Of a stretch of 64,000 bases of DNA, positions 6,225 through 47,308 are shown piece by piece. This DNA comes from Minisyncoccota bacterium (GTDB taxonomy: Bacteria; Patescibacteriota; Minisyncoccia; Phycocordibacterales; SBAW01): positions 187,319 through 251,318 of the forward strand of contig DASZWN010000002.1 of assembly GCA_035546575.1 (NCBI GenBank), written 5' to 3'. The first letter of the stretch is position 1. Every line of letters starts with the position of its first letter. The position numbers and the translations under genes were made by a program. The notes below the pieces were generated by a model. It ran no database searches. It saw nothing but the letters and a program-made list of their open reading frames with translations, and had not been told where the DNA came from.

Positions 6225-6252
6225 CTGGTTCCCCTGTGTACGAACCTCTCTA

Positions 6253-16235: not shown

Positions 16236-16312
16236 ATATTATAGAAAACGAATAATTCTACAGCTACCTAATAATCATACATTATAAGGCTATATGACTG
16301 TCTGGGGATAAC

Positions 16313-16341
16313 TTGACATACAGCCGTTTTGGGTGTATAAT
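16313..16341 (+). promoter_or_regulatory. Perfect consensus sigma-70 promoter TTGACA-N17-TATAAT
   Basis: TTGACA at 16313-16318, a 17-nt spacer and TATAAT at 16336-16341. It shares the TTTGGGTGTATAAT module with the promoter at 24138. Confidence 0.55.
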
Positions 16342-16382
16342 AGCCATCAAGTTCGTTTGTTCTTCAATAAAGGAGGTGGCCC

Positions 16383-16607
16383 ATGTCGGCCATTGATCAC
16401 AGATACAACTTGCCGGTTATCAAGCCAGCGAGTAAGTTCGAGAAGCGGATGCGGATCGGACTTGCAGTTTGCCTTACGGCCGCTGCAATTCTGATCGTCG
16501 CAGACAAGATCGGCGAACGTCTCCAGAACGAAGCTGCGGACTCTGTCGGCGCCTCGATTTCAAGCGGGATCAACATCGTCGGCAGCATTATGGGAAATCT
16601 TCCCTGA
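16383..16607 (+). CDS. Small membrane protein (74 aa), hypothetical
   Basis: Strong RBS AAGGAGGTG placed 6 nt from the ATG, one TM segment, a consensus promoter upstream and a terminator downstream. Confidence 0.55.
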   Translation: MSAIDHRYNLPVIKPASKFEKRMRIGLAVCLTAAAILIVADKIGERLQNEAADSVGASISSGINIVGSIMGNLP

Positions 16608-16625
16608 TACCCAAACAGGTTCGAC

Positions 16626-16668
16626 CGCCGCCCCCACCTACCTCAGGTGCGGGCGGCGTTCTGTTTTT
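16626..16668. terminator. Bidirectional intrinsic terminator (CGCCGCCC...GGGCGGCG stem with an inner CACCT/AGGTG stem, followed by TTCTGTTTTT)
   Basis: Seen in the sequence between the convergent small gene and ychF. Confidence 0.6.
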
Positions 16669-17611
16669 ATCCGTGCAAAAACTCCATCACTTCGCCGTCT
16701 TTGACGATATATTCTTTGCCCTCGGTGCGGATCCAGCCCAAGTCGCGCGCTTTGCTCCAACTCCCCGCCTCAAGCAGCTTATCCCAGGCAATAACCTCGG
16801 CGCGGATAAACTTTGTCTCAAAATCGGTGTGGATTGCAGCACCGGCTTTAGGCGCGGCTGAGCCTTTTGTGATCGTCCATGCACGCGTCTCGTCTTTGCC
16901 GGTCGTAAAAAAGCTGATAAGCCCGAGCAACTCGTAGCCGCCTCTAATCAGCGCGTTAACACCGTCCTCAAACATGCCGTACTCCTGGCGGAACTGCTGC
17001 TTGTCATCAGCATGGAGCTCGCGCAGATCGTTCTCGACATGTGCGTCTACCACCACCCAGGTAGCATTGGTATTTTTAAAGAATTCCATCAGCCTGTCCC
17101 ATCGCTCGTCCTTCATCTCATCGAGGTTGTGGCCGCCGGACTCCTTGTTCAACACGTAGAGCACCGGCTTTTGGCTGATCAGATTCTCTTTTTTATCCAA
17201 ATCGGCCAACTGGAGTTCGGTATTGATAAGTTCGATGTCGTGCACCGGGTCGATAGTGTCCTCCACCTGCGCAATGTTTTCGTTGTCAAAGATACGCACC
17301 ACATGCGCGATGGCGTCTACCTCGCGGATATGCTGCAAAAATTGGTTGCCGAGCCCTTCGCCCTCACTCGCACCCTTAACCAGACCTGCAATGTCGACAA
17401 ACTCCACTGCTGCCGGGATATCTTTTGCCGACTGCGAGAACTTGGCGAGCTTTTCGCGACGCTCGTCTGGGACCGCAACTACACCAACCGACGGGTCAAT
17501 GGTCGCAAACGGATAGTTGGCAATAAGCACGCTCTTTTTAGTGAGCGCCTGAAAAAGAGTCGACTTACCCACGTTGGGGAGGCCAACAATACCTATAGAA
17601 AGTTTCGCCAT
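16667..17611 (-). CDS. ychF: Ribosome-binding ATPase YchF (Obg-family GTPase)
   Basis: G1 motif GIVGLPNVGKST, G4 NKES-like region and the TGS-domain C-terminus. Confidence 0.9.
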   Translation of the reverse strand: MAKLSIGIVGLPNVGKSTLFQALTKKSVLIANYPFATIDPSVGVVAVPDERREKLAKFSQSAKDIPAAVEFVDIAGLVKGASEGEGLGNQFLQHIREVDAIAHVVRIFDNENIAQVEDTIDPVHDIELINTELQLADLDKKENLISQKPVLYVLNKESGGHNLDEMKDERWDRLMEFFKNTNATWVVVDAHVENDLRELHADDKQQFRQEYGMFEDGVNALIRGGYELLGLISFFTTGKDETRAWTITKGSAAPKAGAAIHTDFETKFIRAEVIAWDKLLEAGSWSKARDLGWIRTEGKEYIVKDGEVMEFLHG

Positions 17612-17685
17612 GAGCCTGGATTATGCCATGGATTTACAACATTGTCTCTCAGCCATTAGATAAAATATCTCATGCCATGAGGTAA

Positions 17686-17714
17686 TTGACTACTCGAGGC
17701 CAAACTGATAGTAT
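17686..17714 (+). promoter_or_regulatory. Candidate promoter TTGACT-N17-TAGTAT for the RND operon, with an upstream 13-bp palindrome CTCATGCCATGAG (17669-17681)
   Basis: Hexamers and spacing read from the sequence. The ATG is 9 nt downstream of the -10, suggesting a near-leaderless transcript. Confidence 0.35.
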
Positions 17715-17722
17715 AGCTGCAC

Positions 17723-19288
17723 ATGATAAACGACATTTTGTATAGGGTTTGGGCCTTTCTGCGCGGCCTGTGGAAGCGCATTCATTTATTCTTCAGCAAG
17801 CTTGGGGTCTGGAAGTCGGTCGCACTCATTGCAGGCGTTATTATCGTACTGCTCGTAGCTAAACATTTTATTTTTGGCGGCGCTCCGGCAGCAGAAGTAA
17901 CTACTAACGACACGCCAACCGTCACGGTTAAGTCGGTTGCCGCTCTCATGGAAGGCGGCTCTCCCCTTTCTATTGCAGGCCAGGTGCAATCGCAAACTCA
18001 GGCAACCGTTAATAGCGAAAAATCTGGCACCATCACCTCGGTCAACTACGCACTCGGCGATTATGTATACGCAGGCGCGGTAATAGCACAAATAGAGAAC
18101 GCATCTGAGCGCGCAGCGGTTGCACAAGCACAGGCAGCGGTAGATGCCGCTACCGCAGGCTCGCAAACCTCGCAAACAACGCTTGCGGCAGCACAAGGCA
18201 ACGCAGTTACTGCGCTTCTTTCTGCGTACGGCACCACAGACAGCTCCATAAAGGGCACGGTAGACCCGATGTTTTCTAACCCGACCAGCAATCAGCCGCA
18301 GCTCAATGTCACGAGCTCCGACTCACAGGCAAAAGTAGACTCCGAGAACGGCCGCCTGAAGATCAACACCGTCCTTAACCGCGAGCATGCACGCTCGGCG
18401 TCTCTCTCGAGCTCTGACGATCTTATGGCTGAGATCACTACAACTCAGGCTGAGCTTAGACAAACTCGTGACTTCTTTGACACACTGATCCGCGCACTCA
18501 ACGCAGGTATCGCAACGCAGACGGTAAGCGACTCAACGCTCACTGCCTACAAAGCATCTGCGGCTGCCGCGCGCGCCTCTATCACAGGCAGCATTTCAAC
18601 GCTCATAGGCATACAACAGGCGCTTCAGACCGCGCAGCAAAACTCCTCGCAGACAACCGGCGTTTCGGCAACGCAGGCTGGTCTGGCGCAGGCACAAGCG
18701 GGCCTTGCTGCGGCTCGCGCTAACCTCGAGAAGAGCATTATCCGTGCGCCTATCTCGGGCACGATCAACTCGCTCCCGCTTAAAGTGGGCAACTTTATTG
18801 CATCGTTCTCGCCGGCAGTCACTATTGCCAACAACGGCGCGCTTGAGGTTATCGCATACGTCACGCAAAACGACACCGCACAGATCAGCGTTGGCGGCAA
18901 AGCAGTAATCGAGGGCAGCGTTGCGGGCGTGATCACCCGTATCGCGCCAGCGCTCGACCCGCTTACCAAAAAGATCGAGGTTCGCGTCGGCATCACCGGC
19001 AAAAACACGCTCATAAACGGCCAGTCTGTCTCGGTTGAGCTCGGCAGCGCACCAAAACCAACTACTGCTCTTACAAAAATCACGATCCCACTCGCGGCAC
19101 TTAAAATTGCTGCCGACGGCATGAGCGTATTCACCGTAAACGCCTCAAACACACTCGAAACACAGCCGGTTACTATCGGCGAGCTTATGGGCGACCGTGT
19201 AGTTATTATCAGCGGCCTCACTGCAACGACCACTATTGTTACCGACGCGCGCGGTCTCCGCGCAGGCCAGAGTGTAAACGTTCGCTAA
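17723..19288 (+). CDS. RND efflux periplasmic adaptor (membrane fusion protein, HlyD family)
   Basis: N-terminal TM segment, coiled-coil Ala/Gln-rich region and C-terminal beta-barrel domains. Precedes an AcrB-like permease. Confidence 0.8.
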   Translation: MINDILYRVWAFLRGLWKRIHLFFSKLGVWKSVALIAGVIIVLLVAKHFIFGGAPAAEVTTNDTPTVTVKSVAALMEGGSPLSIAGQVQSQTQATVNSEKSGTITSVNYALGDYVYAGAVIAQIENASERAAVAQAQAAVDAATAGSQTSQTTLAAAQGNAVTALLSAYGTTDSSIKGTVDPMFSNPTSNQPQLNVTSSDSQAKVDSENGRLKINTVLNREHARSASLSSSDDLMAEITTTQAELRQTRDFFDTLIRALNAGIATQTVSDSTLTAYKASAAAARASITGSISTLIGIQQALQTAQQNSSQTTGVSATQAGLAQAQAGLAAARANLEKSIIRAPISGTINSLPLKVGNFIASFSPAVTIANNGALEVIAYVTQNDTAQISVGGKAVIEGSVAGVITRIAPALDPLTKKIEVRVGITGKNTLINGQSVSVELGSAPKPTTALTKITIPLAALKIAADGMSVFTVNASNTLETQPVTIGELMGDRVVIISGLTATTTIVTDARGLRAGQSVNVR

Positions 19289-19298
19289 CTCTCCTCAC

Positions 19299-22200
19299 AT
19301 GCTTGCTATCTGGAAATTCTTTATAGAAAAGCGCCAGTTCACTACGCTCTTAATCGCAGCTGTCGTATTGTGGGGCGTTGTTGCAGCGATACAAATAACC
19401 AAGGAGTCCGGCCCCGAGGTATCTATCCCGGTTGGTATTGTCACCACGGTGCTCCCAGGCGCCTCGGCCGAGGACGTTGAGCGTCTTGTGACCGACAAGA
19501 TGGAAACACATCTTGCTAACATCGAGAACCTCGACACCATCACCTCAACTTCGCGTGACGGAGTCTCTTCAGTGGTCGTACAGTTCCTCGCATCTGCCGA
19601 CCTTGATAAGTCGATCCAGAAACTCAAAGACGAGGTAGACAAAGCCAAGATCGACCTCCCAACCGAGGCAAAAGATCCGACCGTTTCCGATGTTAACTTT
19701 GTCGACCAACCGATCCAGATTATTTCTGTTTCCGCAGACGCGCCGTTTGTAAAACTTGCGGAGCTGGCCGACCAGCTCAAAGACGAACTCCAGTCAGTTA
19801 AGGGCGTGCAGCGCGTTGAGATCTCTGGTGTCCGCAATCGTGAGATCGATGTTGTTGTTAAAAAAGAGGAGCTCGCTCGCCTCAACATCAGCCTGCCGCA
19901 GGTGGTACAGGCTATCAGTGCCGCAAACTCGTCGCTCCCGGTTGGCGCTATCACCGTAGACAATGTCAACTACAATATTGCGTTTGAGGGCAGCTTCGAT
20001 ACTGTTTCTGACATCGGTAGCGTTGCGATCCTTAACGTAAACGGCCAAGTAGTGTATGTGCGCGATATCGCAGATGTATCTGATGGTATCGAAAAAGCAA
20101 CTTCGTACTCGCGAGTTTCGGTAAGCGGAGCACCGTCCGAGCAAGCAATGTCGCTCCTTGTATACAAGGTACGCGGCCAGGACGTCACTACCGTAACTCG
20201 CACCGTTAAAGCAAAACTCGACGATCTTAAAAAGTCGATTCTTAACGGCAGCCAGGTGGTGGTCTCGCTCGACGCTGGCGACGAGGTGCAAAAAGATCTC
20301 ACTGAACTGACGCGCACCGGCCTCGAGACTATGGCGCTCGTAATGTTGGTGCTGTTTTTGACGCTTGGCTGGCGCGAGGCAGTTGTGGCCGGCGCTTCTA
20401 TCCCGCTTTCATTCCTCATCGCATTCGTGGGGCTTCTCTACTCGGGCAACACGCTCAACTTTATATCGCTCTTCTCGCTCATTCTTGCTATCGGCATTCT
20501 TGTGGACTCCGGTATCGTGGTGGTTGAGGCGATCCACACGCGTATTCGCAAATTTGGCGACAAACAGATGGCGGGCATGGAAGCCTTGCGCGAATATGCC
20601 TGGCCGCTCATGGGCGGCACTATTGCAACGGTCTCGTTCTTCGTACCGCTTTTCTTTATCTCGGGCATTGTCGGCAAATTTATCGCTTCGATCCCTTTTA
20701 CGCTTATCTTCGTGCTTATTGCCTCGATATTCGTAGCGCTCGGCCTTGTGCCGACGCTCACCATTATGTTTTCCAAGAGCGGGCACGACAGCCGCCTGGT
20801 AGCAATACAGGAGGAGTACACCGAGCGCGCCCGCAAATGGTACGCAGACAAGCTGCAACACTTCCTGGACCGTCGTACATGGCAAAACCGCTTTTTGTGG
20901 GGCATGGGTCTGGCGTTTGCACTTGCGATTGCCCTCCCTATAACCGGCATATTGCCCGTTTCCTTCTTCCCGCAGGAGGACATCGACTTCCTCTACGCCG
21001 ATATTGAACTTCCTCCGGGCAGCACCCTTGCGCAGACCGACCTTTCGGTGCGCGAAGTCGAGGATCGCCTCTACGGAGACAACAATATCGCATCGTTTGT
21101 AGCCGAGGTAGGCGCCTCGAGTGAGTTCGGCAATAACCCGCAACGCGACCCGCGTTTTGGCAACATCACCATCAACCTTGCAAAGGACCGCAGCAAAACC
21201 AGTACCGAAATACTCAGCGATATCCGCAAAGATCTCTCCGACATCACCAGTGCCAAAATAACCGCAGGCGAGCCGAACAACGGACCACCCGTAGGCGCGG
21301 CCGTTGACGTTAAGTTCCTCGGTCTCGACCAAGACGCTCTCGATACTACTGTAGCAAAAGCACGCGCAGTGCTTGAGGCAACACCGGGAGCAACCAGCGT
21401 AGATGCATCAAATAAAAACGAGACGCTTGAGTTTGACCTTAAGGTAGACCGCGCAAAACTCTCGCAAGTCGGGCTTTCCCCTGCTGCGGTAGCAAGCACG
21501 CTGCGCACTGCAGTCTCTGGCGTTAAAGCAACCTCGATCTCAGGTCTTGACCGCGATGTCGATGTGAACGTGTATCTTAATATCAATCCGTCATACACCG
21601 ACCCGCACGACACCACCAATACCAGCCTCGACGGCCTCCACCAGATCCCGATCACTACGCCAAGCGGCACTACCGTGCTTTTAGGCTCCTTACTCGAGGA
21701 GAGCATTACGCGCAACAACTCGATCATTAACCACGAGGATCGCAAACGCGTTGTAGAGCTGACCGCAAATACGCTCCCAGGCTACACTGCAGCCGGCGTA
21801 CTCGCTGCATACAACAAGGGTATGGAGCAGGTTGAGCTCCCACCAGGCGTGACTGTCTCGATCGGCGGCGAGAACGAGGAGACCAACAAGTCGTTTGCAG
21901 AAATGGGTTACGCGCTCCTCGCCGGTATTGCGCTCACGTTCGTTATCCTGGTTATCTCGTTTAACTCCTACCGTTTTGCGGGCTTCTTGCTTATCTTGGT
22001 GCCGCTCTCGCTTATTGGCGTCTTCGGCGGCTTGGTGCTCACCGGCCAGATGCTCTCATTCTCATCGCTCTTGGGCGTTATTGCGCTCGCAGGCGTTATC
22101 ATCAACCATGCGATTATCCTCATGGACTCGATCATTCAGCGCCTCAAGCATGGCGCCGGCCGTACGCTCAGCGACATTGTTATCGAGGCTGCAGTATCGC

Positions 22201-22409
22201 GCCTTCGCCCAATTATCCTCACGACTGTCACGACCGTAATCGGCATGATTCCGCTCACCTATGCCTCGGCGCTCTGGGGCCCGCTCGCATTTGCGATCCT
22301 CTTCGGCCTCTCGTTTGCGATGATCCTTACGCTCGTACTGATCCCAACGCTCGTGTACCGCTGGCCAGGCGTATTGCCGGAAGGAGTAGTAAAACCTAAA
22401 AATAAATAA
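19299..22409 (+). CDS. RND efflux transporter permease (AcrB/AcrD/AcrF family)
   Basis: 1036 aa, 12-TM architecture with two large periplasmic loops, and AcrB-like N-terminus. Confidence 0.9.
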   Translation: MLAIWKFFIEKRQFTTLLIAAVVLWGVVAAIQITKESGPEVSIPVGIVTTVLPGASAEDVERLVTDKMETHLANIENLDTITSTSRDGVSSVVVQFLASADLDKSIQKLKDEVDKAKIDLPTEAKDPTVSDVNFVDQPIQIISVSADAPFVKLAELADQLKDELQSVKGVQRVEISGVRNREIDVVVKKEELARLNISLPQVVQAISAANSSLPVGAITVDNVNYNIAFEGSFDTVSDIGSVAILNVNGQVVYVRDIADVSDGIEKATSYSRVSVSGAPSEQAMSLLVYKVRGQDVTTVTRTVKAKLDDLKKSILNGSQVVVSLDAGDEVQKDLTELTRTGLETMALVMLVLFLTLGWREAVVAGASIPLSFLIAFVGLLYSGNTLNFISLFSLILAIGILVDSGIVVVEAIHTRIRKFGDKQMAGMEALREYAWPLMGGTIATVSFFVPLFFISGIVGKFIASIPFTLIFVLIASIFVALGLVPTLTIMFSKSGHDSRLVAIQEEYTERARKWYADKLQHFLDRRTWQNRFLWGMGLAFALAIALPITGILPVSFFPQEDIDFLYADIELPPGSTLAQTDLSVREVEDRLYGDNNIASFVAEVGASSEFGNNPQRDPRFGNITINLAKDRSKTSTEILSDIRKDLSDITSAKITAGEPNNGPPVGAAVDVKFLGLDQDALDTTVAKARAVLEATPGATSVDASNKNETLEFDLKVDRAKLSQVGLSPAAVASTLRTAVSGVKATSISGLDRDVDVNVYLNINPSYTDPHDTTNTSLDGLHQIPITTPSGTTVLLGSLLEESITRNNSIINHEDRKRVVELTANTLPGYTAAGVLAAYNKGMEQVELPPGVTVSIGGENEETNKSFAEMGYALLAGIALTFVILVISFNSYRFAGFLLILVPLSLIGVFGGLVLTGQMLSFSSLLGVIALAGVIINHAIILMDSIIQRLKHGAGRTLSDIVIEAAVSRLRPIILTTVTTVIGMIPLTYASALWGPLAFAILFGLSFAMILTLVLIPTLVYRWPGVLPEGVVKPKNK

Positions 22410-22413
22410 TAAA

Positions 22414-22444
22414 AAAACCGCTCGTTATGGAGCGGTTTTTTATT
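22414..22444. terminator. Bidirectional intrinsic terminator (AAACCGCTC-GTTATG-GAGCGGTTT followed by a T run)
   Basis: 9-bp stem flanked by A and T runs. Confidence 0.7.
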
Positions 22445-23057
22445 TCCCAAGTCGGCCTAGATGCGCCACTTTGCGGCGCCACTCGTTGCGCTTCCATTCG
22501 GGCGCTGTCTCACTGGGGCCAAATAGCGACGTCTTTACCCGGAAACCCGCAAACCACAAGATCCCCATCTTGATCTCGTTGGTGTAGTCGCCAAAGAGCA
22601 TCCAGATAAAAAACGGATGCGTACCGGAGAGGATTATGACGCGCGCTGTTTTGCCCTTGAGGCGTTTTTTCCAACCTAAAGCCGGCGTCCCCTGCTTGGT
22701 CTTGCGCATATTAAACGCAAAGCCAGGCATCCACATGCGGTCAAACAGGCCTTTAAGCAAGGCCGGCATCGAGCACCACCAGTTGGGATACAACAATACA
22801 AAATGGTCGCACCACTTGATTGCCTCTTGGAGCGCTACCAGGTCGGGCTCGTAGGCTTGTATCACTTTGTAGCCTTTATGGAGGATCGGGTCAAAGTGCA
22901 TCTGTGCTAAGTGAAAGTGCTTGACCTCGTGGCCTGCCTTTTTTGCAGACTCCTCGTATAAAAGCGCTAGCTCGCTGGTGATCGTTGGGTCCGAGTCGGA
23001 GTGCCCTACGAGCACAACGATTTTCTTTTTAACTTCGTGATTATGAAAAAACGACAT
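22440..23057 (-). CDS. NAD(P)H-dependent oxidoreductase, flavodoxin-like fold (Flavodoxin_2/NQO-type)
   Basis: Flavodoxin-like N-terminus (IVVLVGHSDS) and a NAD(P)H dehydrogenase (quinone)-type sequence. Confidence 0.7.
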   Translation of the reverse strand: MSFFHNHEVKKKIVVLVGHSDSDPTITSELALLYEESAKKAGHEVKHFHLAQMHFDPILHKGYKVIQAYEPDLVALQEAIKWCDHFVLLYPNWWCSMPALLKGLFDRMWMPGFAFNMRKTKQGTPALGWKKRLKGKTARVIILSGTHPFFIWMLFGDYTNEIKMGILWFAGFRVKTSLFGPSETAPEWKRNEWRRKVAHLGRLGK

Positions 23058-23071
23058 ACAAATATTCCTGC

Positions 23072-24193
23072 TTAGAATTGTACCGTGCTTGCACGATTTT
23101 GTTTGTCCACATCTTGTGGCGTGCGAGGCATAACGCGTATCGCGGGCAATCCCGGGTTCTCGTCGGGATCTAGCGCGTCTTGTCCGGTAGGTTTAATAGG
23201 TGCAGGTTTTATTGGGACAGAAAGTGTAGGCGCGACTGGTATGGGCATAACGGGCGCAGGTGTAACTTTTGGCAGCCGCGGTGCCACTGCAAGCTCGTGA
23301 GACTGTGCAACTATCGGGAGGGGCGCATGCGGGCGCTCTGGCATCGGTGGTATAGGTGCAGGTTTTGCTGCTACCGGAGTTGGAGGCGGCACCGGCTTTG
23401 GCACGACAGGCTTTGGCTGAGGAGGAGATGCTGTTGGCTTTTGTTGTACAACTGGAGCAGGCTTGGGCTGTGGCGGCGGCGTAGACTTTGGCACGGGTTT
23501 AGGAGCCTCCTTTTTTGGCTCGATAACCTTTTTTTCTGTAACCGCTGCTGGTTTGCTTAGTTTTTGCCGCTGTTTGAGCGACGGTGCGCGCAGGATACGG
23601 AAGATCGCCATGTAACATAACACAAAGGCTGCGCCGCACAAAATGTAGATGATAAAGAGATCAACCCAATTCGTAACGGGTGCGATAATATGCACGATAA
23701 AGAGTGCATACCAATTAGCGCCGATGATCCCCTCCCAGATATAGCTGGGGTACGGCTTGTTTTGACGGAATAAGCTTGCGCCAAATAACAATGCGATCAG
23801 AAGCCACTTAAATAAAAACGCCGGGGAGAGTACGATCCCGAGTGCTCCGCCCGAGATATGCATTGCGGTTATTACAAGACCGGAAAGAATAATAATCCAG
23901 AGACCAAGAGTCTGTACGCGGGTTACCGCACGGCCAAACTGCTCTTCTTTGGGGTCTATCGTACCGTCGTACACTGAGACTAAGTAGGCTACGAGGAGGA
24001 TCGACGCCGAGCCGACGCCGAGCATTACGCCCAACTGCTGCGCAGAATAAAGGATGAGGTTGACCACATCAACCGAAAAGGACATGCAAAAATTGTAGCA
24101 TGAGAAATGTTCCTCTATCTCAGTTGCTTTGCCATATTTGACAAATTCTATATTTGGGTGTATAATTAAAACCGGCAGTTTCGTCGAAATCAA
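23072..24193 (-). CDS. Multi-pass membrane protein with long Pro-rich (PxP repeat) C-terminal tail, hypothetical
   Basis: ORF with 6 or more TM segments and about 130 aa of PKPxP low-complexity sequence. The true start may be an internal Met (MSFSVDV). Confidence 0.5.
   Translation of the reverse strand: MISTKLPVLIIHPNIEFVKYGKATEIEEHFSCYNFCMSFSVDVVNLILYSAQQLGVMLGVGSASILLVAYLVSVYDGTIDPKEEQFGRAVTRVQTLGLWIIILSGLVITAMHISGGALGIVLSPAFLFKWLLIALLFGASLFRQNKPYPSYIWEGIIGANWYALFIVHIIAPVTNWVDLFIIYILCGAAFVLCYMAIFRILRAPSLKQRQKLSKPAAVTEKKVIEPKKEAPKPVPKSTPPPQPKPAPVVQQKPTASPPQPKPVVPKPVPPPTPVAAKPAPIPPMPERPHAPLPIVAQSHELAVAPRLPKVTPAPVMPIPVAPTLSVPIKPAPIKPTGQDALDPDENPGLPAIRVMPRTPQDVDKQNRASTVQF
24138..24167 (+). 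promoter_or_regulatory. Perfect consensus sigma-70 promoter TTGACA-N17-TATAAT
   Basis: TTGACA at 24138-24143, a 17-nt spacer and TATAAT at 24162-24167. It shares the TTTGGGTGTATAAT module with the promoter at 16313. Confidence 0.55.
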
Positions 24194-24209
24194 CAGAGGA
24201 AAGACGATT

Positions 24210-24626
24210 ATGGAAATCGAGGAAGGACTTTTGCCTGACTGGCGCTATGCGCTAGAAAAGGCGGGGCTACTGGTGGCCTACGACCAATTCCTGGCCAAGG
24301 TGAAAGAAATGACCGCTCCGCTCAAACCGACTAGTCGGCATGCAGCATGGGTGATTTCTGGCTATGGCGGCATCGCGCCGGAACACCTGAGGCAAGGTTA
24401 CCAACATACTCTGGTGCTCAAGGTGACACCGATCGATAACATGCGGACCCACGAAGGTTGGCTTCGCGCGCTCCTTCACTTCAACGGACCCGAGGACGCT
24501 GTCAGCGTCATCGAAAGCGCCTCAGATTCGATCGAGTATCCGCGCGAACACAAGGGTACACTGGAGAAGGTGATTCAGGAGCTGATCAGCGACATCATCC
24601 CCATCGTTCCGCGTTTAAAGTTCTAA
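24210..24626 (+). CDS. Hypothetical protein (138 aa)
   Basis: Start chosen at MEIEEGLLPDW, with RBS AGAGGAAAG placed 6 nt upstream. A consensus promoter lies upstream. Confidence 0.5.
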   Translation: MEIEEGLLPDWRYALEKAGLLVAYDQFLAKVKEMTAPLKPTSRHAAWVISGYGGIAPEHLRQGYQHTLVLKVTPIDNMRTHEGWLRALLHFNGPEDAVSVIESASDSIEYPREHKGTLEKVIQELISDIIPIVPRLKF

Positions 24627-24711
24627 CAACCCATCAACATTGGCTTAACCCGCTGCGTTGGTGGGTTTTGCTGTATGCAAGGAGTAAACTCTTTGCCAAT
24701 TAAACAGAGGA

Positions 24712-24948
24712 TTAGAGAATCACCGTGGCACCATCGTGGCGGACCTCCATCACACCTCCCTCAACCTCAATTTCTTTTGGGCTCGCGCCTGCGGTTTCTC
24801 GTATCGAAATAGTGCCCGGTTTAAGTGTGGTAATGAGCGGCATATGCTCGCCGAGCACGGTCATGTCGCCTGCAGTTGCAGGAACGGTCATGGAGTACGC
24901 TTCTCCATCGAAAAATACTTCGCTTACTTTTGCAATTACGACGTGCAT
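24712..24948 (-). CDS. atpC: F-type ATP synthase epsilon subunit (short form, beta-sandwich domain only)
   Basis: Last gene of the atp operon, with an epsilon N-terminal domain-like sequence. Confidence 0.75.
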   Translation of the reverse strand: MHVVIAKVSEVFFDGEAYSMTVPATAGDMTVLGEHMPLITTLKPGTISIRETAGASPKEIEVEGGVMEVRHDGATVIL

Positions 24949-25041
24949 TATTTTGTATATTTGCGGATCACCAACACAAGAAAGTAGCCGATAACAATAC
25001 CAACCGCTACTCCCTTGATAAAGTCGACATCAAACATGGTT

Positions 25042-26442
<1,401 letters not shown>

Positions 26443-26449
26443 TTAATTT

Positions 26450-26473
26450 GGAAGCTATGCAAGCATAGCTTCC
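26450..26473 (-). promoter_or_regulatory. 24-bp perfect palindrome GGAAGCTATGC-AA-GCATAGCTTCC overlapping the atpG stop codon (atpG-atpD intercistronic stem-loop)
   Basis: Perfect 11-bp arms read from the sequence. It encodes the atpG C-terminus MEAMLA plus the stop codon. Confidence 0.5.
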
Positions 26474-27432
26474 ATTCCTCCAGTAATTTCCGAGACTTCT
26501 CTCGTAATCGCAGCCTGTCTCGCTTTGTTAAACTTTAATGTTAGCGAGCCCCGCATCTCCCCCGCTTTGTCCGAGGCCGACTTCATCGCCACCATGCGCG
26601 CCGAGTGTTCAGAAGCTTGGGTCTCGAGTAATGCGTGGTAGACAAAGATGGAGGCTAGGCGCGGGAGGATTGCGCTGAGCACCTCGCCCTCTGATGGCTC
26701 TATTGTATATACAGACTGTTTTGAATTTGTATCAGATTGCGCTGCATACACACCCCGCACTGGGAGAATATCGTTGACCACCTCCTGGAGCTCCTCAAGC
26801 GAGAGCGGAAAGACAGTGTGTATGGTCGGGCGCTGCTCAAAGGTTGATACGAAGTTTTGATAGACAATTTTAACCACTTCTACCTCGCCCAAAGTAAACC
26901 GTTTTGCGGCCCCACTAACCAAGGTGTCGATAAGCTCCGGCGTTATCTGGTCAGTATTTGGATAAAACGCGCTTATCGTAAAGCCGCGCATTGTAAAAAA
27001 GTCGTTTGCTTTGCGACCTACTGCCACCACCTCTACCTGTGATGGATTGAGACCCATATTGGCAATATCTGCTGCACTCCCGCGCAGCACGGCCGAGTTG
27101 AGAGCGCCGGCCAAACCCTTGTCGCTGGTGATGACTATATACAAAGCTGTCTTGGGTGCGGAAAATGTATCTTCTCGACCATCCCCGCGATGACCTGCAG
27201 GGAGAGAAGACACGTTTTCTGCACCCCTCATGAGCGGATGGCTCGCAAGGTCTTTGCTGCCCGAGGTGCGTGCAAGGATAGAGGCAGCGGCCCGAGCATA
27301 TGCGCGGCCCGAAAGCGCGCGCTGCTGCGCCTTGCGCATCTTGGCAGCAGAAACTGCCTCCATCGCTTTGGTTACTTTTTGCGTCTTCTCGACGCTCTTT
27401 ATTTTAGATTTAATTGCTTTCAGCGCTGCCAT
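26455..27432 (-). CDS. atpG: F-type ATP synthase gamma subunit (carries an in-frame palindromic element insertion)
   Basis: N-terminal MAALKAIKSKIKSVEKTQKVTKAM and ITSDKGLAGALN gamma signatures. Contains the inserted peptide SSLPAGHRGDGREDTFS. Confidence 0.9.
   Translation of the reverse strand: MAALKAIKSKIKSVEKTQKVTKAMEAVSAAKMRKAQQRALSGRAYARAAASILARTSGSKDLASHPLMRGAENVSSLPAGHRGDGREDTFSAPKTALYIVITSDKGLAGALNSAVLRGSAADIANMGLNPSQVEVVAVGRKANDFFTMRGFTISAFYPNTDQITPELIDTLVSGAAKRFTLGEVEVVKIVYQNFVSTFEQRPTIHTVFPLSLEELQEVVNDILPVRGVYAAQSDTNSKQSVYTIEPSEGEVLSAILPRLASIFVYHALLETQASEHSARMVAMKSASDKAGEMRGSLTLKFNKARQAAITREVSEITGGMEAMLA
27161..27219 (-). repeat. In-frame palindromic insertion element, copy 1 (in atpG)
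   Basis: Core GACCATCCCCGCGATGACCTGCAGGGAG flanked by 16-nt complementary arms GAAAATGTATCTTCTC and GAGAAGACACGTTTTC. The core is shared with the copies at 55522 and 60141. Confidence 0.65.
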
Positions 27433-27438
27433 ACAATG

Positions 27439-29004
27439 TTATTTTGCCTGCACAAGGTCCGGGTGCGTCTCTGCAAAGCTCGTGAGCGCCTGCTTGAGGT
27501 GCTCCTCGGTCTGCTCCGCAATGAGCTTTGATTCGCGGATAGACTCAATGACCTCAGGATATTCGGACTCGATATATGCAAGCATCTTCTGCTCGTACTC
27601 CGGCACGCGATCTACTGCCACATCTTTGAGGTAGCCGTTTACCGAAGCGTAGATAGAGATAGCCTGGAGCTCAAAGCCCATCGGATTGCCGTTGCGCTGC
27701 TTGAGCGTTGCCATCATGCGCTGACCAAAGTCGATGCGCTTTTTAGTGTCTGCATCGAGGTCCTGGCTAAACTGCATAAAGGCCTCAAGCTCGCGGAACT
27801 GGGCGAGCTCAAGCTTGATTTTGCCGGAGACCTTCTTCATTGCCTTAGTTTGTGCGGCCGAACCCACGCGCGACACCGAGATGCCCGCGTTGATAGCAGG
27901 ACGAATGCCTTTGTTAAAGAGATCAGTCTCGAGGAATATCTGCCCGTCGGTAATAGAAATAACGTTGGTCGGGATGTAGCCGGAGACGTCGTTTTCCTGT
28001 GTCTCGATAACTGGGAGCGCGGTCAAAGATCCGCCGCCCTTCTCCTTAGAGAGTTTTGCGGCACGCTCGAGGAGGCGGGAGTGGAGATAAAACACATCGC
28101 CCGGATACGCCTCACGGCCCGGGGGGCGGCGCAACAGCAGCGAGAGCTGGCGATATGCAACTGCGTGCTTGGAAAGATCGTCGTAGATCACGAGTGCGTC
28201 GCGGCCCTGGTCCATAAAGTACTCGCCGATAGCAGCGCCCGCAAAAGGAGCCAGGTACTGGAGCGCCGCCGGAGCCGAAGCGCCTGCATCGACAATAATC
28301 GAGTACTCCATTGCGCCCGCATCGCGCAGCTGAGCCATCAAACGCGCAGTCTTACTCTCCTTTTGGCCGATCGAAACATAAATACAAATCGGGCGGCTCT
28401 CCTTCGGCTCAGTCTTTTGGTTAAGGATGGTGTCGATAGCCACGGTCGTCTTGCCGGTGTAGCGGTCGCCGATGATAAGCTCGCGCTGGCCACGGCCTAT
28501 CGGGATCATCGCGTCGATTGCCTTGATGCCAGTGTGGAGCGGCTGGTTAACCGACTGGCGATCCATCACGCCGTACGCCTCGCGCTCAATTGGGTTTTGT
28601 TTGTCTGCCTTGATAGCGCCCTGGCCGTCAAGCGCCTCACCCAAAGGAGATACGACACGACCAATAAGCGCATCGCCCACCGGGATCGAGAGCACCGAGC
28701 CGGTAGACTCGACAGTCATACCCTCGCGCACCAGCGCCACATCGCCCAAAATAATCGCGCGGACAGACTCCTCTTCCAGATTCAAAATAACTCCGTAGAC
28801 TTCGCTTGAGGTTTCAATTGCATCCTTGAGGTTTTTGCCGTGTGCCGTGTCAAAGCGGACCATTTCTGACATCACCGCATTTGAAAGGCCCTCGATCTCG
28901 GCCACACCGTCGGAGACGCGCAGCACAGTACCCGCTCCCTGAGCGCGCTTCTCGGGAGTAAACCCTTCTATCTCTTTTTTAAATTGTTCGATGAAGTTTT
29001 GCAT
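27439..29004 (-). CDS. atpA: F-type ATP synthase alpha subunit
   Basis: Walker A GDRYTGKT and overall alpha-subunit similarity. Confidence 0.95.
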
Positions 29005-29005
29005 C

Positions 29006-29257
29006 TTATTTGCTGGCTACAAGTTTGCGATAAAGTTCGAGAAGATTTCTGGTCTGTTGCCGCTCGGGAGTGTCCTTTTGGTGCATCTCCATGCGGGCTT
29101 TGTGCACCTGGAGCTTTTGATACTCGGAGAAGATTCTTGGCAGAAGTTTTTGATGTCCGCGCTTCTCTAATGCCTGCTTAAGAGCGTCTAAAACTTTTTT
29201 CGGCTCACTCGTTTGTGTTTGCGAGAGCGCGTGCGCGTACATTTCTTCTAATTTCAT
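29006..29257 (-). CDS. atpH: Putative ATP synthase delta (OSCP) subunit, unusually short (83 aa)
   Basis: Occupies the atpH position between atpF and atpA and is translationally coupled to both. Weak resemblance to the delta C-terminal region. Assignment is by synteny. Confidence 0.45.
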
Positions 29258-29703
29258 GCTCGTTTTTCGTTAAGGACCTTTTCAGCTCCGAGCACGATCA
29301 TCTTTGCAACCTCCTCACGACTCTCGGTGATTGCCTGCACTTTCAATTCTTTTGCTTGCGCCTCTGCCTCTGTGAGGATGCGCTGCGCTGCGCTCTCGCC
29401 CTGTGTAATAAGCTCGCGTTCCTTCTGCGAGCCCGCAGTGCGCGCCTGAGAGACAATGGTGTCTGCCTCGCGGCCGGCCTCGGCAAGCTTGGCTGCACGA
29501 GAGTGTTCAATCTGCGCAAGCTCCTCGTGCGCCTTTTGCGCATCTGCTACACCCTGCATAACCTTTTGGCGGCGCTCCTCGAGCATCCGCATGACCGGCC
29601 CGTACAAAAAGTACCAAAGGCCGACAAGCAAGATGCCAAAGTTAAGCCCCTGAATTAAGAGGAGCTTCCAATCAATGCCAAAAGTTGTAAAGATTGCTTG
29701 CAT
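29254..29703 (-). CDS. atpF: F-type ATP synthase subunit b
   Basis: N-terminal TM segment plus a long charged helix (AEAQAKELK...). Confidence 0.85.
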   Translation of the reverse strand: MQAIFTTFGIDWKLLLIQGLNFGILLVGLWYFLYGPVMRMLEERRQKVMQGVADAQKAHEELAQIEHSRAAKLAEAGREADTIVSQARTAGSQKERELITQGESAAQRILTEAEAQAKELKVQAITESREEVAKMIVLGAEKVLNEKRA

Positions 29704-29817
29704 GGGATTATGCGAAGGAAAATGTTCTTAAAAAATAGTCTGGCCCGAGAGAATTCCGCGAAGACGGAATTGCGATACGGGAGACCCGAGGACTTTTTTT
29801 AAGGACATTTTTTGGAG

Positions 29818-30069
<252 letters not shown>

Positions 30070-30072
30070 TTA

Positions 30073-30834
30073 TTAATGCGCTGCCTTGTGGCTCCCATGC
30101 GGCTCCTCGACCGCCAGCTTAATGTACGCCAGGGTAAGGATCGCAAAGATAGCTGCCTGCAAAAGCCCGATAAAGAGCTCAAATGCCATCAGCGGCACTG
30201 GCGCTATATAAGGAGCAAAAAAGGCTATCACCAAAAGGAGGGTTTCTCCCGCAAAGATCGCCCCGAAGAGCCGGAACGACAACGAGACAAGCCGTGCCAG
30301 GTTTCCGATAATCTCGAGCAACCCGATAATAAACCCCATTGCGCCTCCCCTAAAATTAACAAATTTTGAGCCATATTTCAACACGCCGAGCGTGAGGATG
30401 CCGGAAAACTCTGCTACAAAAAAAGCGATGATCGCGAGCGCGAGCGTAGTGTTTAGGTCGGCGCTTGGCACATGGAGGAGCGATGCTGTCTCTCCTTCTG
30501 TATGCACAGTAAACGGCGCGAATATGGGCAGGAATGCAAAAAAGTTTACCGTAAGCACAAACAGGAAAATAGTCGCGATAAGCGGGAAATAGCGGTTTGC
30601 GAGCTTATCGCTCTGGAGGGCCTCATGCACATAGCCATAGACGTACTCATAGGCCATCTCGATAGCGCTCTGGGTGCGACCCGGAGTGAGTTTGAGCGAG
30701 CGACCTATCAAAAAGGCGCCCAGAAGGAGCACGGCCATGATCAGCCAGGTGGTCAAAACCGTGTTGGTGACAGGTATCCCCCACACCGAGAATAAGCGCT
30801 CAGCTGCGAGCGTGATATGCAGCCCTGACTCCAT
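30073..30834 (-). CDS. atpB: F-type ATP synthase subunit a
   Basis: Conserved arginine region LSFRLFGAI, and 5-6 TM segments. Confidence 0.9.
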   Translation of the reverse strand: MESGLHITLAAERLFSVWGIPVTNTVLTTWLIMAVLLLGAFLIGRSLKLTPGRTQSAIEMAYEYVYGYVHEALQSDKLANRYFPLIATIFLFVLTVNFFAFLPIFAPFTVHTEGETASLLHVPSADLNTTLALAIIAFFVAEFSGILTLGVLKYGSKFVNFRGGAMGFIIGLLEIIGNLARLVSLSFRLFGAIFAGETLLLVIAFFAPYIAPVPLMAFELFIGLLQAAIFAILTLAYIKLAVEEPHGSHKAAH

Positions 30835-39286: not shown

Positions 39287-39632
39287 GAGGGAATATATTT
39301 TCTCCTTTAAATATATCGATGTCGGACATCTGCATATGCTCCAGGTTGGTCATTATCCAAAGCGTACCAACAACAAGAATTAAAACGACAACAACCGCAA
39401 ACACGAGCGCGGTTAAGTTCCACCGCGGCTTGCGCTCCTGCCCTATATGCAAAAAGAAGATCAGCTGCACACATAGCTGTGCGAGGGCCAGGATAACAAA
39501 CCCGAATCTAAGCTCCTGGTGCGTCGGGAATGAGTGCGAGGTAGCTCCGTGCAACCATAAGAGCCCGAGCGGCACGAATGTGAGGAGTATTGAGAGTATA
39601 AAACCGGTTATGTAGGCGTGTTGCGGTTTCAT
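39270..39632 (-). CDS. cyoD: Quinol oxidase subunit IV
   Basis: About 120 aa, 3-TM CyoD/QoxD-like protein in the expected operon position. Confidence 0.65.
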   Translation of the reverse strand: MKPQHAYITGFILSILLTFVPLGLLWLHGATSHSFPTHQELRFGFVILALAQLCVQLIFFLHIGQERKPRWNLTALVFAVVVVLILVVGTLWIMTNLEHMQMSDIDIFKGENIFPHADTD

Positions 39633-46910: not shown

Positions 46911-47192
46911 TTAGCGATCAGACATCGTGATCGAGACACTATTCTTGTTGAACATCTTGCCGACCAATTTCGGCAATATGTCCGCATAGAAATCTCTAAG
47001 CTCATTCAGATCAACTCCGGCGTCCTTGGCGATGTTACCGAGTTCGCGATTGAAGTTGTTCGGGGTCGGCATCGGTGTGCTCAAAAACCGATACTCGACG
47101 AGCTTGAGAGCGATCTCGCCCTTACGTTTGTCGTCCATCTTCTTTCCTTCAAAGTACATCATCCACGAAACTCTCGTGGCAGAGGTTACCAA
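46911..47192 (-). CDS. Small hypothetical protein (93 aa)
   Basis: ORF with a TATAAT-containing upstream region. AT-richer than its surroundings. Confidence 0.4.
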   Translation of the reverse strand: MVTSATRVSWMMYFEGKKMDDKRKGEIALKLVEYRFLSTPMPTPNNFNRELGNIAKDAGVDLNELRDFYADILPKLVGKMFNKNSVSITMSDR

Positions 47193-47308
47193 AGGTCTTT
47201 AGTAACTCTATAATTATACCCCCAAACAATACAAAAGTCAATAGGTCAAGGGAGCTTTAAAATAAGGGTTCTGAGGGCCGGAAAAGAAAAGAGCTACACA
47301 GGGTAGCT

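What the first reader, a model, noticed from the sequence alone, without database searches (positions are those of the whole stretch)
16313..24626. Two perfect-consensus sigma-70 promoters sharing a 14-nt module (TTTGGGTGTATAAT) drive small unknown proteins
The promoter at 16313-16341 is TTGACA-tacagccgtTTTGGGTG-TATAAT. The promoter at 24138-24167 is TTGACA-aattctataTTTGGGTG-TATAAT.

Both match the full consensus with a 17-nt spacer, and both end in the identical TTTGGGTGTATAAT sequence. Each precedes a short gene of unknown function with a good RBS:
- a 74-aa single-TM protein (16383-16607) with a GGAGG RBS and its own terminator;
- a 138-aa protein (24210-24626).

Identical extended promoter modules on unrelated small genes point to very high or co-regulated expression, or to a recently duplicated promoter cassette.
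Basis: seen in the sequence. Interest (0 to 1): 0.5.

Follow-up and report, generated by a model that had tools for sequence, protein, structure and literature searches.

The report
Strong promoters heading orphan small-gene cassettes
Two textbook-perfect bacterial promoters with an identical 8-base stretch between their two core boxes are real, and each drives a small gene found in no other organism, inserted between housekeeping genes of an uncultured ultra-small bacterium; this is a tidy but fairly ordinary case.

Summary
TTGACA-17 nt-TATAAT occurs twice without mismatch (16313-16341 and 24138-24166), against 0.005 expected, and both copies carry TTTGGGTG directly before TATAAT.

- **More of the same:** a third promoter (47241-47213, minus strand) has TTTGGGGG. 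A fourth (48331-48359) is its diverged 53-nt inverted-repeat copy.
- **Organism:** a Candidatus Paceibacterota (CPR) chromosome.
- **Not the local consensus:** ordinary promoters in this lineage are TRTGn-extended -10 boxes with no -35, placed 5-10 nt before the ATG (leaderless).
- **Cassette structure:** promoter, 35-70 nt leader with a ribosome-binding site, small ORF; three of the four end in a convincing terminator. The 74-aa and 138-aa proteins have no homolog in 5.8 billion proteins. The 74-aa cassette is an insertion between ychF and a DUF5671 gene that are adjacent in five relatives.
- **Not a recent duplication:** P1 and P2 share nothing outside the functional blocks.
- **Elsewhere:** the exact promoter gives at least 120 hits in uncultured phage contigs (about 60% from one freshwater phage family) and at least 120 in metagenomes. 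One-base variants of the octamer are nearly as common, so the class is loose (TTTG-NN-TG).
- **Reading:** strong housekeeping-sigma promoters on autonomous orphan-gene cassettes, with a selected promoter-proximal spacer.
- **Unexplained:** a second shared block, AGTT(T)CGT, in all four leaders.

The parts
16313..16341 (+). P1: -35 TTGACA (16313-16318), spacer tacagccgt + octamer TTTGGGTG (16328-16335), -10 TATAAT (16336-16341)
16350..16356 (+). Leader box AGTTCGT: 9th nt after the -10 box, 33 nt before the ATG
16372..16376 (+). Shine-Dalgarno GGAGG, 6 nt before ATG
16383..16607 (+). p74: 74-aa single-TM orphan protein (VHD31_02740)
16623..16670 (+). Intrinsic terminator: G+C-rich hairpin plus TTCTGTTTTTAT. 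Lies between the convergent genes p74 and ychF
   Evidence: -31.1 kcal/mol, z -5.2
16236..16666 (.). The whole 431-bp segment between the DUF5671 gene and ychF. It is absent in relatives, where the two genes are 0-90 nt apart, so it is a lineage-specific insertion. It also holds minus-strand TATAAT boxes for the DUF5671 gene
24138..24166 (+). P2: -35 TTGACA (24138-24143), spacer aattctata + octamer TTTGGGTG (24153-24160), -10 TATAAT (24161-24166)
24177..24184 (+). Leader box AGTTTCGT: 11th nt after the -10 box, 33 nt before the ATG
24196..24200 (+). Shine-Dalgarno GAGGA
24210..24626 (+). p138: 138-aa soluble orphan protein (VHD31_02770)
24628..24672 (+). Probable terminator hairpin followed by TTTTGCTG
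   Evidence: -20.1 kcal/mol, z -2.5
47213..47241 (-). P3: TTGACT-tttgtattg-TTTGGGGG-TATAAT, preceded by a second -35-like TTGACC
46911..47138 (-). p75: 75-aa protein (VHD31_02915) driven by P3. Leader box AGTTTCGT at 47172-47165, Shine-Dalgarno AAGGA at 47149-47145
48331..48359 (+). P4: TTGACA-tttatgttg-TTTTAGTA-TATACT, a paralog of P3. The two form a 53-nt inverted repeat, 47210-47262 and 48310-48362
48421..48978 (+). p185: conserved Paceibacterota-specific protein (VHD31_02930; 19 homologs found, 58-83% identity in all but the two weakest, partial hits) driven by P4. Leader box AGTTTTCGT at 48367-48375, terminator at 48984-49040

Best explanation
P1 and P2 are genuine, very strong promoters for the housekeeping sigma factor (sigma-A / sigma-70 type). 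P3 belongs to the same set, and P4 is a diverged copy of P3.

**What each promoter heads.** A compact, self-contained, one-gene cassette: full -35/-10 promoter, a 35-70 nt leader with a Shine-Dalgarno site and a small lineage-restricted ORF, followed in three of the four cases by a convincing intrinsic terminator. These cassettes sit between conserved housekeeping genes of a Candidatus Paceibacterota chromosome. At least the p74 cassette is an insertion relative to related genomes.

**Why they stand out.** Most other genes of this lineage use an extended -10 (TRTGn-TAnnnT) promoter without a -35 box, placed so that the mRNA is leaderless.

**The shared octamer at -20 to -13.** I read TTTGGGTG as a selected promoter-proximal spacer sequence, not a relic of duplication.
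- It has a T-run at -20 to -18, the region where sigma residue R451 and the beta-prime zipper are known to sense spacer DNA.
- A G-run follows at -17 to -15.
- Its TG is one base out of register with the classical extended -10. This avoids stacking an extended -10 on top of perfect -35 and -10 boxes.

**Where else the architecture occurs.** The same design (TTGACA-N9-TTTG-NN-TG-TATAAT, a leader of about 34 nt, ORFs of about 90 aa) is common in uncultured phage genomes and on chromosomal contigs of groundwater bacteria. The cassettes therefore look like phage 'moron'-style or ORFan expression units.

**Shown:** sequence anatomy, non-randomness, orphan status, the insertion, the contrast with host promoters, and recurrence elsewhere.

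**Inferred:** promoter strength, the role of the octamer, and cassette origin. What the proteins do remains unknown: p74 is a small single-pass membrane protein, and p138 and p75 are small soluble proteins.
For: - **Perfect promoters are non-random:** 2 observed against 0.005 expected, 0 of 1000 shuffles reaching 2. Both are intergenic and correctly oriented, with a ribosome-binding site; a strong terminator follows p74 and a weaker hairpin follows p138.
- **Octamer recurrence:** identical in P1 and P2, 7/8 in P3, with no similarity in the other 9 spacer bases or the flanks.
- **The known duplicate pair differs in the octamer:** P3 and P4 differ at 4 of 8 octamer positions.
- **Host-type promoters:** 126 leaderless-geometry -10 boxes in related Paceibacteria loci show T-17 0.56, T-15 0.61, G-14 0.63, which is TRTGn. 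P2's divergent neighbour p337 has TCTCATGC-TACAAT-6 nt-ATG.
- **Insertion:** ychF and the DUF5671 gene are 0-90 nt apart in L005, L006, L007, L009 and L010. L008 has a different 2.6-kb insert at the same junction.
- **Variable P2 site:** the atpC-p337 junction differs between L005 and L006.
- **Orphans:** p74 and p138 matched only themselves. There are no Pfam, PHROG, PADLOC or NCBIfam hits.
- **Codon usage:** scores are below the host mean.
- **Recurrence of the exact 20-base-specified promoter:** at least 120 stretches in IMG/VR and at least 120 in metagenomes, against 1 for a shuffled octamer.
- **What the hits drive:** a median of 34 nt to an SD-ATG and a median ORF of 93 aa.
- **Chromosomal examples:** contigs from Hainich groundwater.
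- **Published work on spacer sensing:** -18T stimulates sigma-70 transcription via R451 (PMC3130263). The beta-prime zipper reads positions -22 to -18 (PMC3173786). A TG motif added to a consensus promoter dampens output (PMC8695583).
Against: - There are no expression or transcription-start data, so strength is inferred from consensus match alone. Perfect-consensus promoters can be limited by promoter escape.
- The octamer is not uniquely favoured. The single-base variants TTTGGCTG and TTTGAGTG give 103 and 70 viral stretches. In a sample of 130 TTGACA-N15-TGTATAAT phage promoters, only 1 had TTTGGG.
- About 60% of the viral hits come from one phage family in which the whole spacer is conserved by descent. 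The case for a universal RNAP-read element is therefore weak.
- P4 and its ortholog in L902 work without the octamer.
- For a phage origin, there are no phage or integrase genes near P1 or P2, and the cassettes' G+C content equals the host's.
- The extra conserved leader box AGTT(T)CGT is not explained by this model.
- Only 64 kb of the genome could be surveyed.
Confidence: 0.5

Rival explanations
1. The octamer, the AGTT(T)CGT leader box, or both, are binding sites for one regulator. That would most likely be a repressor, since the octamer overlaps -20 to -13. The small orphan genes would then form a co-regulated set.
For: - Conservation is block-wise, with unrelated sequence between the blocks. 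That is the typical signature of a regulon.
- 4 of the window's 9 AGTT{1,3}CGT matches fall within the roughly 200 nt of these four leaders, where 0.015 would be expected.
- The box lies 33, 33 and 34 nt before the ATG in P1, P2 and P3.
- A MarR-family regulator gene is present in the window at 50595-51017.
Against: - The octamer has no dyad or direct-repeat symmetry and no second half-site. Eight bases is short for an operator.
- The same octamer recurs in contigs of 27-70% G+C and in many phages that cannot share one regulator.
- The leader box was found post hoc.
- In the P4 ortholog L902, the bases between the -10 box and AGTT vary while AGTTTTCGT onwards is conserved. That fits a transcript 5' end better than an operator.
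- No regulator is linked to any of the cassettes.
Confidence: 0.2
2. P1 and P2 are copies of one recently duplicated promoter cassette or small mobile promoter element.
For: - 20 of 29 promoter positions are identical, and the leader lengths are similar (33 nt from the leader box to the ATG in both).
- Promoter duplication does happen in this genome: P3 and P4 form a 53-nt inverted repeat at 79% identity.
Against: - All identity is confined to functional blocks: 1 of 9 matches in the rest of the spacer, and none in the 12 nt upstream or in the leader apart from the 7-8 nt box.
- A recent copy would keep neutral positions, as P3 and P4 do.
- There are no terminal repeats or target-site duplications around either cassette.
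- The genes driven are unrelated.
Confidence: 0.07
3. Nothing special: TTTGGGTG-TATAAT is simply the consensus extended promoter of this genome or clade, or the identity is chance among strong promoters with T-rich, G-containing spacers.
For: - Other -10 boxes in the window are also preceded by G/T-rich runs: GCGTGGGA-TACTAT, GTGTGGGC-TAGTAT, ACATGCTG-TATAAT.
- L066, another Patescibacteria contig, has TTGACA-N9-AATGGGTG-TATAAT.
- Positional base preferences in phage promoters raise the chance of a match.
Against: - The clade's extended -10 is TRTGn, with TG at -15/-14. The octamer's TG is at -14/-13.
- The closest relatives L005 and L006 have no near-consensus -35/-10 promoter in 40 kb.
- Even using the positional frequencies, two promoters would share all 8 bases with a probability of about 1e-4 (my calculation from the table). 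A third promoter matches at 7/8.
Confidence: 0.1

Closest known systems
Consensus sigma-70 / sigma-A housekeeping promoters (such as synthetic Ptac-type or phage early promoters)
   Same: Perfect TTGACA and TATAAT boxes, the optimal 17-bp spacer, an intergenic position, and a leader with a Shine-Dalgarno site.
   Different: - There is no A/T-rich UP element upstream.
- A conserved G-rich octamer occupies -20 to -13.
- They occur in a lineage whose ordinary promoters lack a -35 box and produce leaderless mRNAs.
Extended -10 (TGn / TRTGn, '-16 region') promoters
   Same: A T/G-rich element directly upstream of the -10 hexamer. The host's other promoters are of this kind.
   Different: In P1, P2 and P3 the TG sits at -14/-13, directly against the hexamer, not at -15/-14. 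These promoters also have a perfect -35 box, which extended -10 promoters usually lack.
Spacer-sensing elements: sigma-70 R451 at position -18 (PMC3130263) and the beta-prime zipper Z-element at -22 to -18 (PMC3173786)
   Same: The conserved T-run covers -20 to -18, the region these contacts read, and -18T is stimulatory in E. coli.
   Different: The T7A1 Z-element is AACCT. Here -22 to -18 reads GTTTT in P1 and TATTT in P2. No G-run at -17 to -15 has been described in those papers.
Phage 'morons' and ORFan gene cassettes (an autonomous promoter-gene-terminator unit inserted between conserved genes)
   Same: - Own promoter and, for three of the four cassettes, a convincing terminator.
- Small genes of unknown function with restricted distribution.
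- Insertion between syntenic genes.
- A promoter style shared with many uncultured phages.
   Different: They are not inside a recognisable prophage, no integrase or phage genes are nearby, and their G+C content equals the host's.
Promoter family of uncultured freshwater phages found here: ggTTGACA-(A/T)TAAATGGN-TTTGGG-(TA/CA/TG)-TATAAT
   Same: The same -35 box, the same TTTGGG at -20 to -15, the same -10 box, a short leader, a Shine-Dalgarno site and small ORFs.
   Different: The phage family also conserves the upstream half of the spacer and the leader, and mostly has TA rather than TG at -14/-13. P1 and P2 share neither of these features. The host of these phages is unknown.

Membership tests
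Sigma-70/sigma-A housekeeping promoter | -35 hexamer matching TTGACA | tested here: met
   6/6 in P1, P2 and P4; 5/6 in P3
Sigma-70/sigma-A housekeeping promoter | -10 hexamer matching TATAAT at 17 +/- 1 bp | tested here: met
   6/6 in P1, P2 and P3, 5/6 in P4; all have 17-bp spacers
Sigma-70/sigma-A housekeeping promoter | Lies upstream of a gene, in the gene's orientation, more often than chance allows | tested here: met
   All four are intergenic and point at an ORF that follows a ribosome-binding site. 0.005 perfect sites expected per window
Sigma-70/sigma-A housekeeping promoter | Transcription initiates about 7 nt downstream of the -10 box | not testable with these tools
   No transcriptome or 5'-end data. 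Indirect hint for P4 only: sequence is conserved from AGTT onward while the 7 nt before it vary
Extended -10 promoter | TG at -15/-14 (TGnTATAAT) | tested here: not met
   P1 and P2 read GGGTG-TATAAT (TG at -14/-13); P3 reads GGGGG-TATAAT
T7A1-type Z-element | AACCT-like sequence at -22 to -18 | tested here: not met
   GTTTT in P1 and TATTT in P2 (PMC3173786)
Duplicated promoter cassette / repeat element | Similarity extends through neutral positions and flanks | tested here: not met
   P1 against P2: 1 of 9 spacer bases, no flank similarity. The feature is met for P3 against P4
Phage moron / autonomous inserted cassette | Own promoter and own terminator around a single gene | tested here: met
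   The terminator is strong for p74 and p185, moderate for p138 and weak for p75
Phage moron / autonomous inserted cassette | Absent from the same position in related genomes | tested here: met
   For p74, ychF and the DUF5671 gene are adjacent in 5 relatives. For p138 the junction is variable, so the result is less clean
Phage moron / autonomous inserted cassette | Located inside a prophage or other mobile element | tested here: not met
   Neighbours are LeuRS, YchF, an RND pump and ATP synthase, with no integrase or phage hits. Only p185 homologs lie near serine recombinases, and that is in other genomes
Type I toxin-antitoxin (small membrane toxin with antisense RNA) | Hydrophobic peptide, usually under 60 aa, with an overlapping antisense RNA promoter | tested here: not met
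   p74 is 74 aa with one TM segment. The consensus scan found no minus-strand promoter within or after the gene. Rfam gave no hit

The most novel reading that the evidence does not exclude
The -35 box, the TTTGGG(T/G)G octamer, the -10 box and the AGTT(T)CGT box together form a dedicated expression module. Patescibacteria chromosomes share it with a large family of uncultured freshwater phages.

If so, the small orphan cassettes are phage-derived morons captured by the host. The promoter signature would also point to Patescibacteria as the hosts of those phages. The octamer would be read by a lineage-specific feature of the RNA polymerase or by a phage or host factor.
Probability: 0.1. Interest if true: 0.65.

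Novelty: new member of a known kind. Interest (0 to 1): 0.33.

Why it matters
If the reading is right, this CPR bacterium runs two promoter styles side by side. One is a minimal extended -10, leaderless style for housekeeping genes. The other is a full-consensus, leadered, phage-like style for newly acquired or newly born small genes.

- **Gene calling and expression prediction:** the rule is useful in Patescibacteria, where there is almost no promoter biology.
- **Targets:** it flags three or four probably abundant small proteins to look for in proteomes.
- **Phage link:** the same exact promoter recurs in hundreds of uncultured phage contigs, which is a usable handle for linking phages to hosts.

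None of this changes what is known about bacterial promoters in general.

Tried and rejected
- **Homology for p74 and p138:** word-indexed search of 5.8 billion proteins, exhaustive HMMER on 1.84 billion representatives for p138, and Pfam, PHROGs, PADLOC and NCBIfam. Nothing but the proteins themselves.
- **Structure of p138:** single-sequence AlphaFold gave pLDDT 49, unusable.
- **Structure and fold search of the p185 family:** N-terminal half pLDDT about 90, C-terminal half about 50, no PDB match with E below 2. The profile search against PDB sequences found nothing. My impression that the C-terminus resembles an RNAP alpha-CTD helix-hairpin-helix could not be confirmed, so I dropped it.
- **Cultured phage relatives of the phage-family promoter:** none in GenBank phages.
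- **Literature search for the motif string:** no relevant paper.
- **RNA genes:** Rfam and tRNA scans found only three tRNAs, and no RNA family under either promoter.
- **The 40341-40354 near-match (2 mismatches):** it lies inside the cytochrome oxidase subunit I gene with no -35 box, so I treated it as chance.
- **L901:** it turned out to be the same organism at 100% identity, so it gave no comparative information.
- **Recent-duplication reading for P1 and P2:** rejected on the alignment.
- **'Local consensus' reading:** rejected on the census of 126 promoters.
- **Early idea that TTTGGGTG is a sharply defined universal element:** weakened by controls. TTTGGCTG gave 103 stretches and TTTGAGTG gave 70. 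About 60% of the viral hits belong to one phage family.

Full report
**1. The observation**

P1 is TTGACA (16313-16318), then tacagccgtTTTGGGTG, then TATAAT (16336-16341). The 14-mer TTTGGGTGTATAAT occurs exactly twice; at up to two mismatches there are 4 matches against 0.22 expected. In 1000 dinucleotide-preserving shuffles of the window, the mean number of perfect TTGACA-N17-TATAAT sites was 0.005, and no shuffle had two.

- GGAGG lies 6 nt before ATG 16383.
- GAGGA lies 9 nt before ATG 24210.
- The 74-aa product has one transmembrane-grade segment (residues 25-43).
- A strong hairpin and T-run follow its gene (-31 kcal/mol, z -5.2). A weaker hairpin follows the 138-aa gene.

**2. More of the same in the window**

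- **P3**, minus strand, 47241-47213: TTGACT-tttgtattg-TTTGGGGG-TATAAT. It drives a 75-aa ORF (47138-46911).
- **P4**, plus strand, 48331-48359: TTGACA-tttatgttg-TTTTAGTA-TATACT. It drives a 185-aa ORF (48421-48978).

P3 and P4 are true paralogs. They form a 53-nt inverted repeat (79% identity) that fires outward around a 1-kb segment holding a 179-aa ORF, two 94-nt-spaced repeats and tRNA-Ala(TGC). A fourth near-match to the 14-mer, at 40341, lies inside the cytochrome oxidase gene without a -35 box. I treat it as chance.

**3. Organism and context**

The window is chromosomal DNA of a Candidatus Paceibacterota (Patescibacteria/CPR) MAG.

- The proteins carry NCBI tags VHD31_02740 (p74), VHD31_02770 (p138), VHD31_02915 (p75) and VHD31_02930 (p185), on a 327-kb contig. 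The same DNA occurs in two Logan runs.
- Neighbouring genes are LeuRS, a DUF5671 protein, YchF, an HlyD/AcrB pair, a flavodoxin-like protein, F-type ATP synthase, a quinol oxidase, UvrABC, Ddl and IMPDH.

**4. The genes**

- p74 and p138 have no relative other than themselves in 5.8 billion clustered proteins. For p138 the same holds in an exhaustive HMMER pass over 1.84 billion representatives.
- No family library matches any of the four products.
- All four ORFs score best in their annotated frame but at or below the host mean for codon usage (host 0.33 +/- 0.11): p74 0.07, p138 0.13, p75 0.22, p185 0.27. p185 has GC3 of 0.83 against 0.62 for the host.
- p185 is a real, conserved, Paceibacterota-restricted family: 19 homologs, 58-83% identity in all but the two weakest, partial hits, with 45 invariant columns. 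In other genomes it lies next to large serine recombinases, an HTH_17 protein and CBASS genes. Its fold gave no match.
- The p138 model was too poor to use.

**5. The cassettes are insertions**

In five related genomes (YchF 58-80% identical), ychF and the DUF5671 gene are 0-90 nt apart on one strand. A sixth relative has a different 2.6-kb insert at that junction. Here, 431 bp (16236-16666) separate the two genes and hold P1, p74 and the terminator on the opposite strand. The site of P2-p138, between atpC and the p337 gene, is also variable: L005 has a nucleotidyltransferase, a 99-aa ORF and a tRNA there, and L006 has 6.8 kb.

**6. Is the octamer the local consensus?**

No, as far as 64 kb and the relatives can tell.

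- I collected -10-like hexamers ending 5-10 nt before the first ATG of long ORFs. In 39 related Paceibacteria loci (126 sites), the bases upstream of the hexamer, which I did not select on, show T-17 0.56, R-16, T-15 0.61 and G-14 0.63. This is the classical TRTGn '-16 region'.
- These promoters have no -35 box and imply leaderless mRNAs. P2's divergent neighbour is a clean example: TCTCATGC-TACAAT-ttttgc-ATG.
- In P1 and P2 the TG is at -14/-13, one base out of that register.
- The two closest relatives have no near-consensus -35/-10 promoter in 40 kb.

So P1 to P4 are a separate promoter class in this genome: full -35/-10, a leader, and a Shine-Dalgarno site.

**7. Duplication or constraint?**

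Outside the -35 box, the octamer and the -10 box, P1 and P2 share 1 of 9 spacer bases and no flanking similarity. The one proven duplicate pair, P3/P4, keeps its neutral positions but differs at 4 of 8 octamer positions. Identity confined to discrete blocks therefore points to constraint or convergence, not recent copying.

Using the positional base frequencies of 130 phage promoters, I estimate that two strong promoters would share all eight bases with a probability of about 1e-4. A third promoter matches at 7/8.

**8. The same promoter elsewhere**

- **Hit counts.** A shuffled octamer gave a single viral hit.
- **Association with a -35 box.** Of the first 120 viral occurrences of the bare 14-mer, 29 carry a perfect TTGACA at exactly N9.
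- **One phage family dominates.** About 60% of the viral hits belong to one family of uncultured, mostly freshwater phages. Its whole promoter is conserved, ggTTGACA-(A/T)TAAATGGN-TTTGGG-(TA>CA>TG)-TATAAT-agaatcttaaacag...AGGA...ATG, with up to six copies in 2 kb. There is no cultured relative.
- **The rest are diverse.** The remaining viral hits and most metagenome hits have unrelated spacers and flanks, with G+C from 27 to 70%. They include chromosomal contigs of 0.1-um-fraction groundwater bacteria.
- **What the hits drive.** Across all hits, the median distance from the -10 box to an SD-ATG is 34 nt and the median ORF is 93 aa. This is the same cassette shape as in the window.
- **Controls that temper this.** The one-base variants TTTGGCTG and TTTGAGTG give 103 and 70 viral stretches. 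Only 1 of 130 generic TTGACA-N15-TGTATAAT phage promoters has TTTGGG. The recurrent class is therefore loose (TTTG-NN-TG). Much of the raw count reflects one phage lineage plus positional base preferences.

**9. Mechanism**

Published work shows that RNA polymerase senses this part of the spacer.

- Sigma-70 R451 lies next to position -18, and -18T stimulates transcription (PMC3130263).
- The beta-prime zipper reads -22 to -18 in Thermus, E. coli and B. subtilis enzymes (PMC3173786).
- Adding an in-register TG to a promoter with consensus hexamers and a 17-bp spacer lowers output, probably by over-stabilising the polymerase (PMC8695583).

The octamer's T-run at -20 to -18 and its out-of-register TG fit a spacer selected for high output from an already perfect core. 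That is inference. The G-run at -17 to -15 has no described reader, and the T7A1-type Z-element (AACCT) is not present.

**10. An unexplained second block**

All four leaders contain AGTT(T)(T)CGT.

| Promoter | Position | Distance to ATG |
|---|---|---|
| P1 | 16350 | 33 nt |
| P2 | 24177 | 33 nt |
| P3 | 47172, minus strand | 34 nt |
| P4 | 48367 | 54 nt |

The window has 9 matches to the pattern, as many as shuffles give (9.5). Yet 4 of them fall in the roughly 200 nt of these leaders, where 0.015 would be expected. I found the motif post hoc. In an ortholog of P4 (L902), the 7 nt between the -10 box and AGTT differ while AGTTTTCGTaccctgact is conserved. This suggests the A is the transcript's first base. 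That reading fits P1 and P4 but not P2 (11th nt after the -10 box) or P3 (42nd nt). It could be a start-site box, a 5'-UTR element or an operator.

**11. Verdict**

- The 'strong promoter' reading is well supported by sequence.
- Co-regulation remains possible.
- Recent duplication is not supported.
- The motif is not the local consensus in the DNA available.

The thing is a set of strong housekeeping-sigma promoters heading autonomous, lineage-specific small-gene cassettes in a CPR chromosome. This promoter style is shared with many uncultured phages. That makes it a new member of a known kind. The interest is modest: the two-style promoter economy of this lineage, and a possible phage link that remains unproven.

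Noticed in passing
window 47210-47262 and 48310-48362 (with 47933-48105 and 48185-48258 in between): P3 and P4 form a 53-nt inverted repeat (79%) whose promoters fire outward. The repeat brackets a 179-aa ORF, two direct repeats spaced 94 nt apart, and tRNA-Ala(TGC). A similar repeat block follows the tRNA-Ala of relative L005 (about 6230-6410). This may be a rearrangement hot spot or a remnant of an integration site.
   Followed up: partly
window 16350, 24177, 47172 (minus strand), 48367: The motif AGTT(T)(T)CGT is shared by the leaders of all four strong promoters. It lies 33, 33 and 34 nt before the ATG in three of them. Four of the window's 9 matches fall in about 200 nt. I found it post hoc and cannot explain it.
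   Followed up: partly
window-wide; for example 24086-24115 (minus strand), and loci L011-L049: Ordinary genes of this lineage appear to use TRTGn-extended -10 promoters with no -35 box, placed 5-10 nt before the ATG, which implies leaderless mRNAs. In 126 sites, T-17 is 0.56, T-15 is 0.61 and G-14 is 0.63.
   Followed up: yes
window 38582-43323 and 24712-30834: The window holds a quinol/cytochrome oxidase subunit I (COX1, 637 aa), a UbiA/CyoE-like prenyltransferase and a complete F-type ATP synthase. Respiratory oxidases are uncommon in Patescibacteria.
   Followed up: no
window 17723-22409: An HlyD/AcrB RND efflux pair lies between ychF and the flavodoxin-like gene. It is missing from that position in relatives L005 and L006, which makes it a second lineage-specific insertion next to the p74 cassette.
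   Followed up: partly
IMG/VR loci such as L104, L635, L639, L647: A large family of uncultured phages (G+C 36-42%, mostly freshwater samples) carries many copies of a 29-nt promoter whose spacer is also conserved: ggTTGACA-(A/T)TAAATGGN-TTTGGG-TA-TATAAT. Each copy precedes a small ORF. There is no cultured relative and the host is unknown.
   Followed up: partly
L897 7575-8552; L899 1670-3244 and 5219-8558: Homologs of p185 in other Paceibacterota lie beside large serine recombinases, an HTH_17 (excisionase-like) gene and CBASS components (SMODS, HORMA). This suggests the family travels with integrative elements.
   Followed up: no
L216, L221, L239, L270 (Hainich groundwater, 0.1-um fraction): The exact P1/P2-type promoter sits on chromosomal contigs (PBP2, RF/PheRS, TopA/SerRS/DnaX, GatB). 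In each case it precedes a small secreted or unknown protein.
   Followed up: partly
window 48361-48978: NCBI annotates VHD31_02930 as 205 aa, starting at 48361. The homolog alignment and the promoter position indicate that the true start is ATG 48421 (185 aa).
   Followed up: yes
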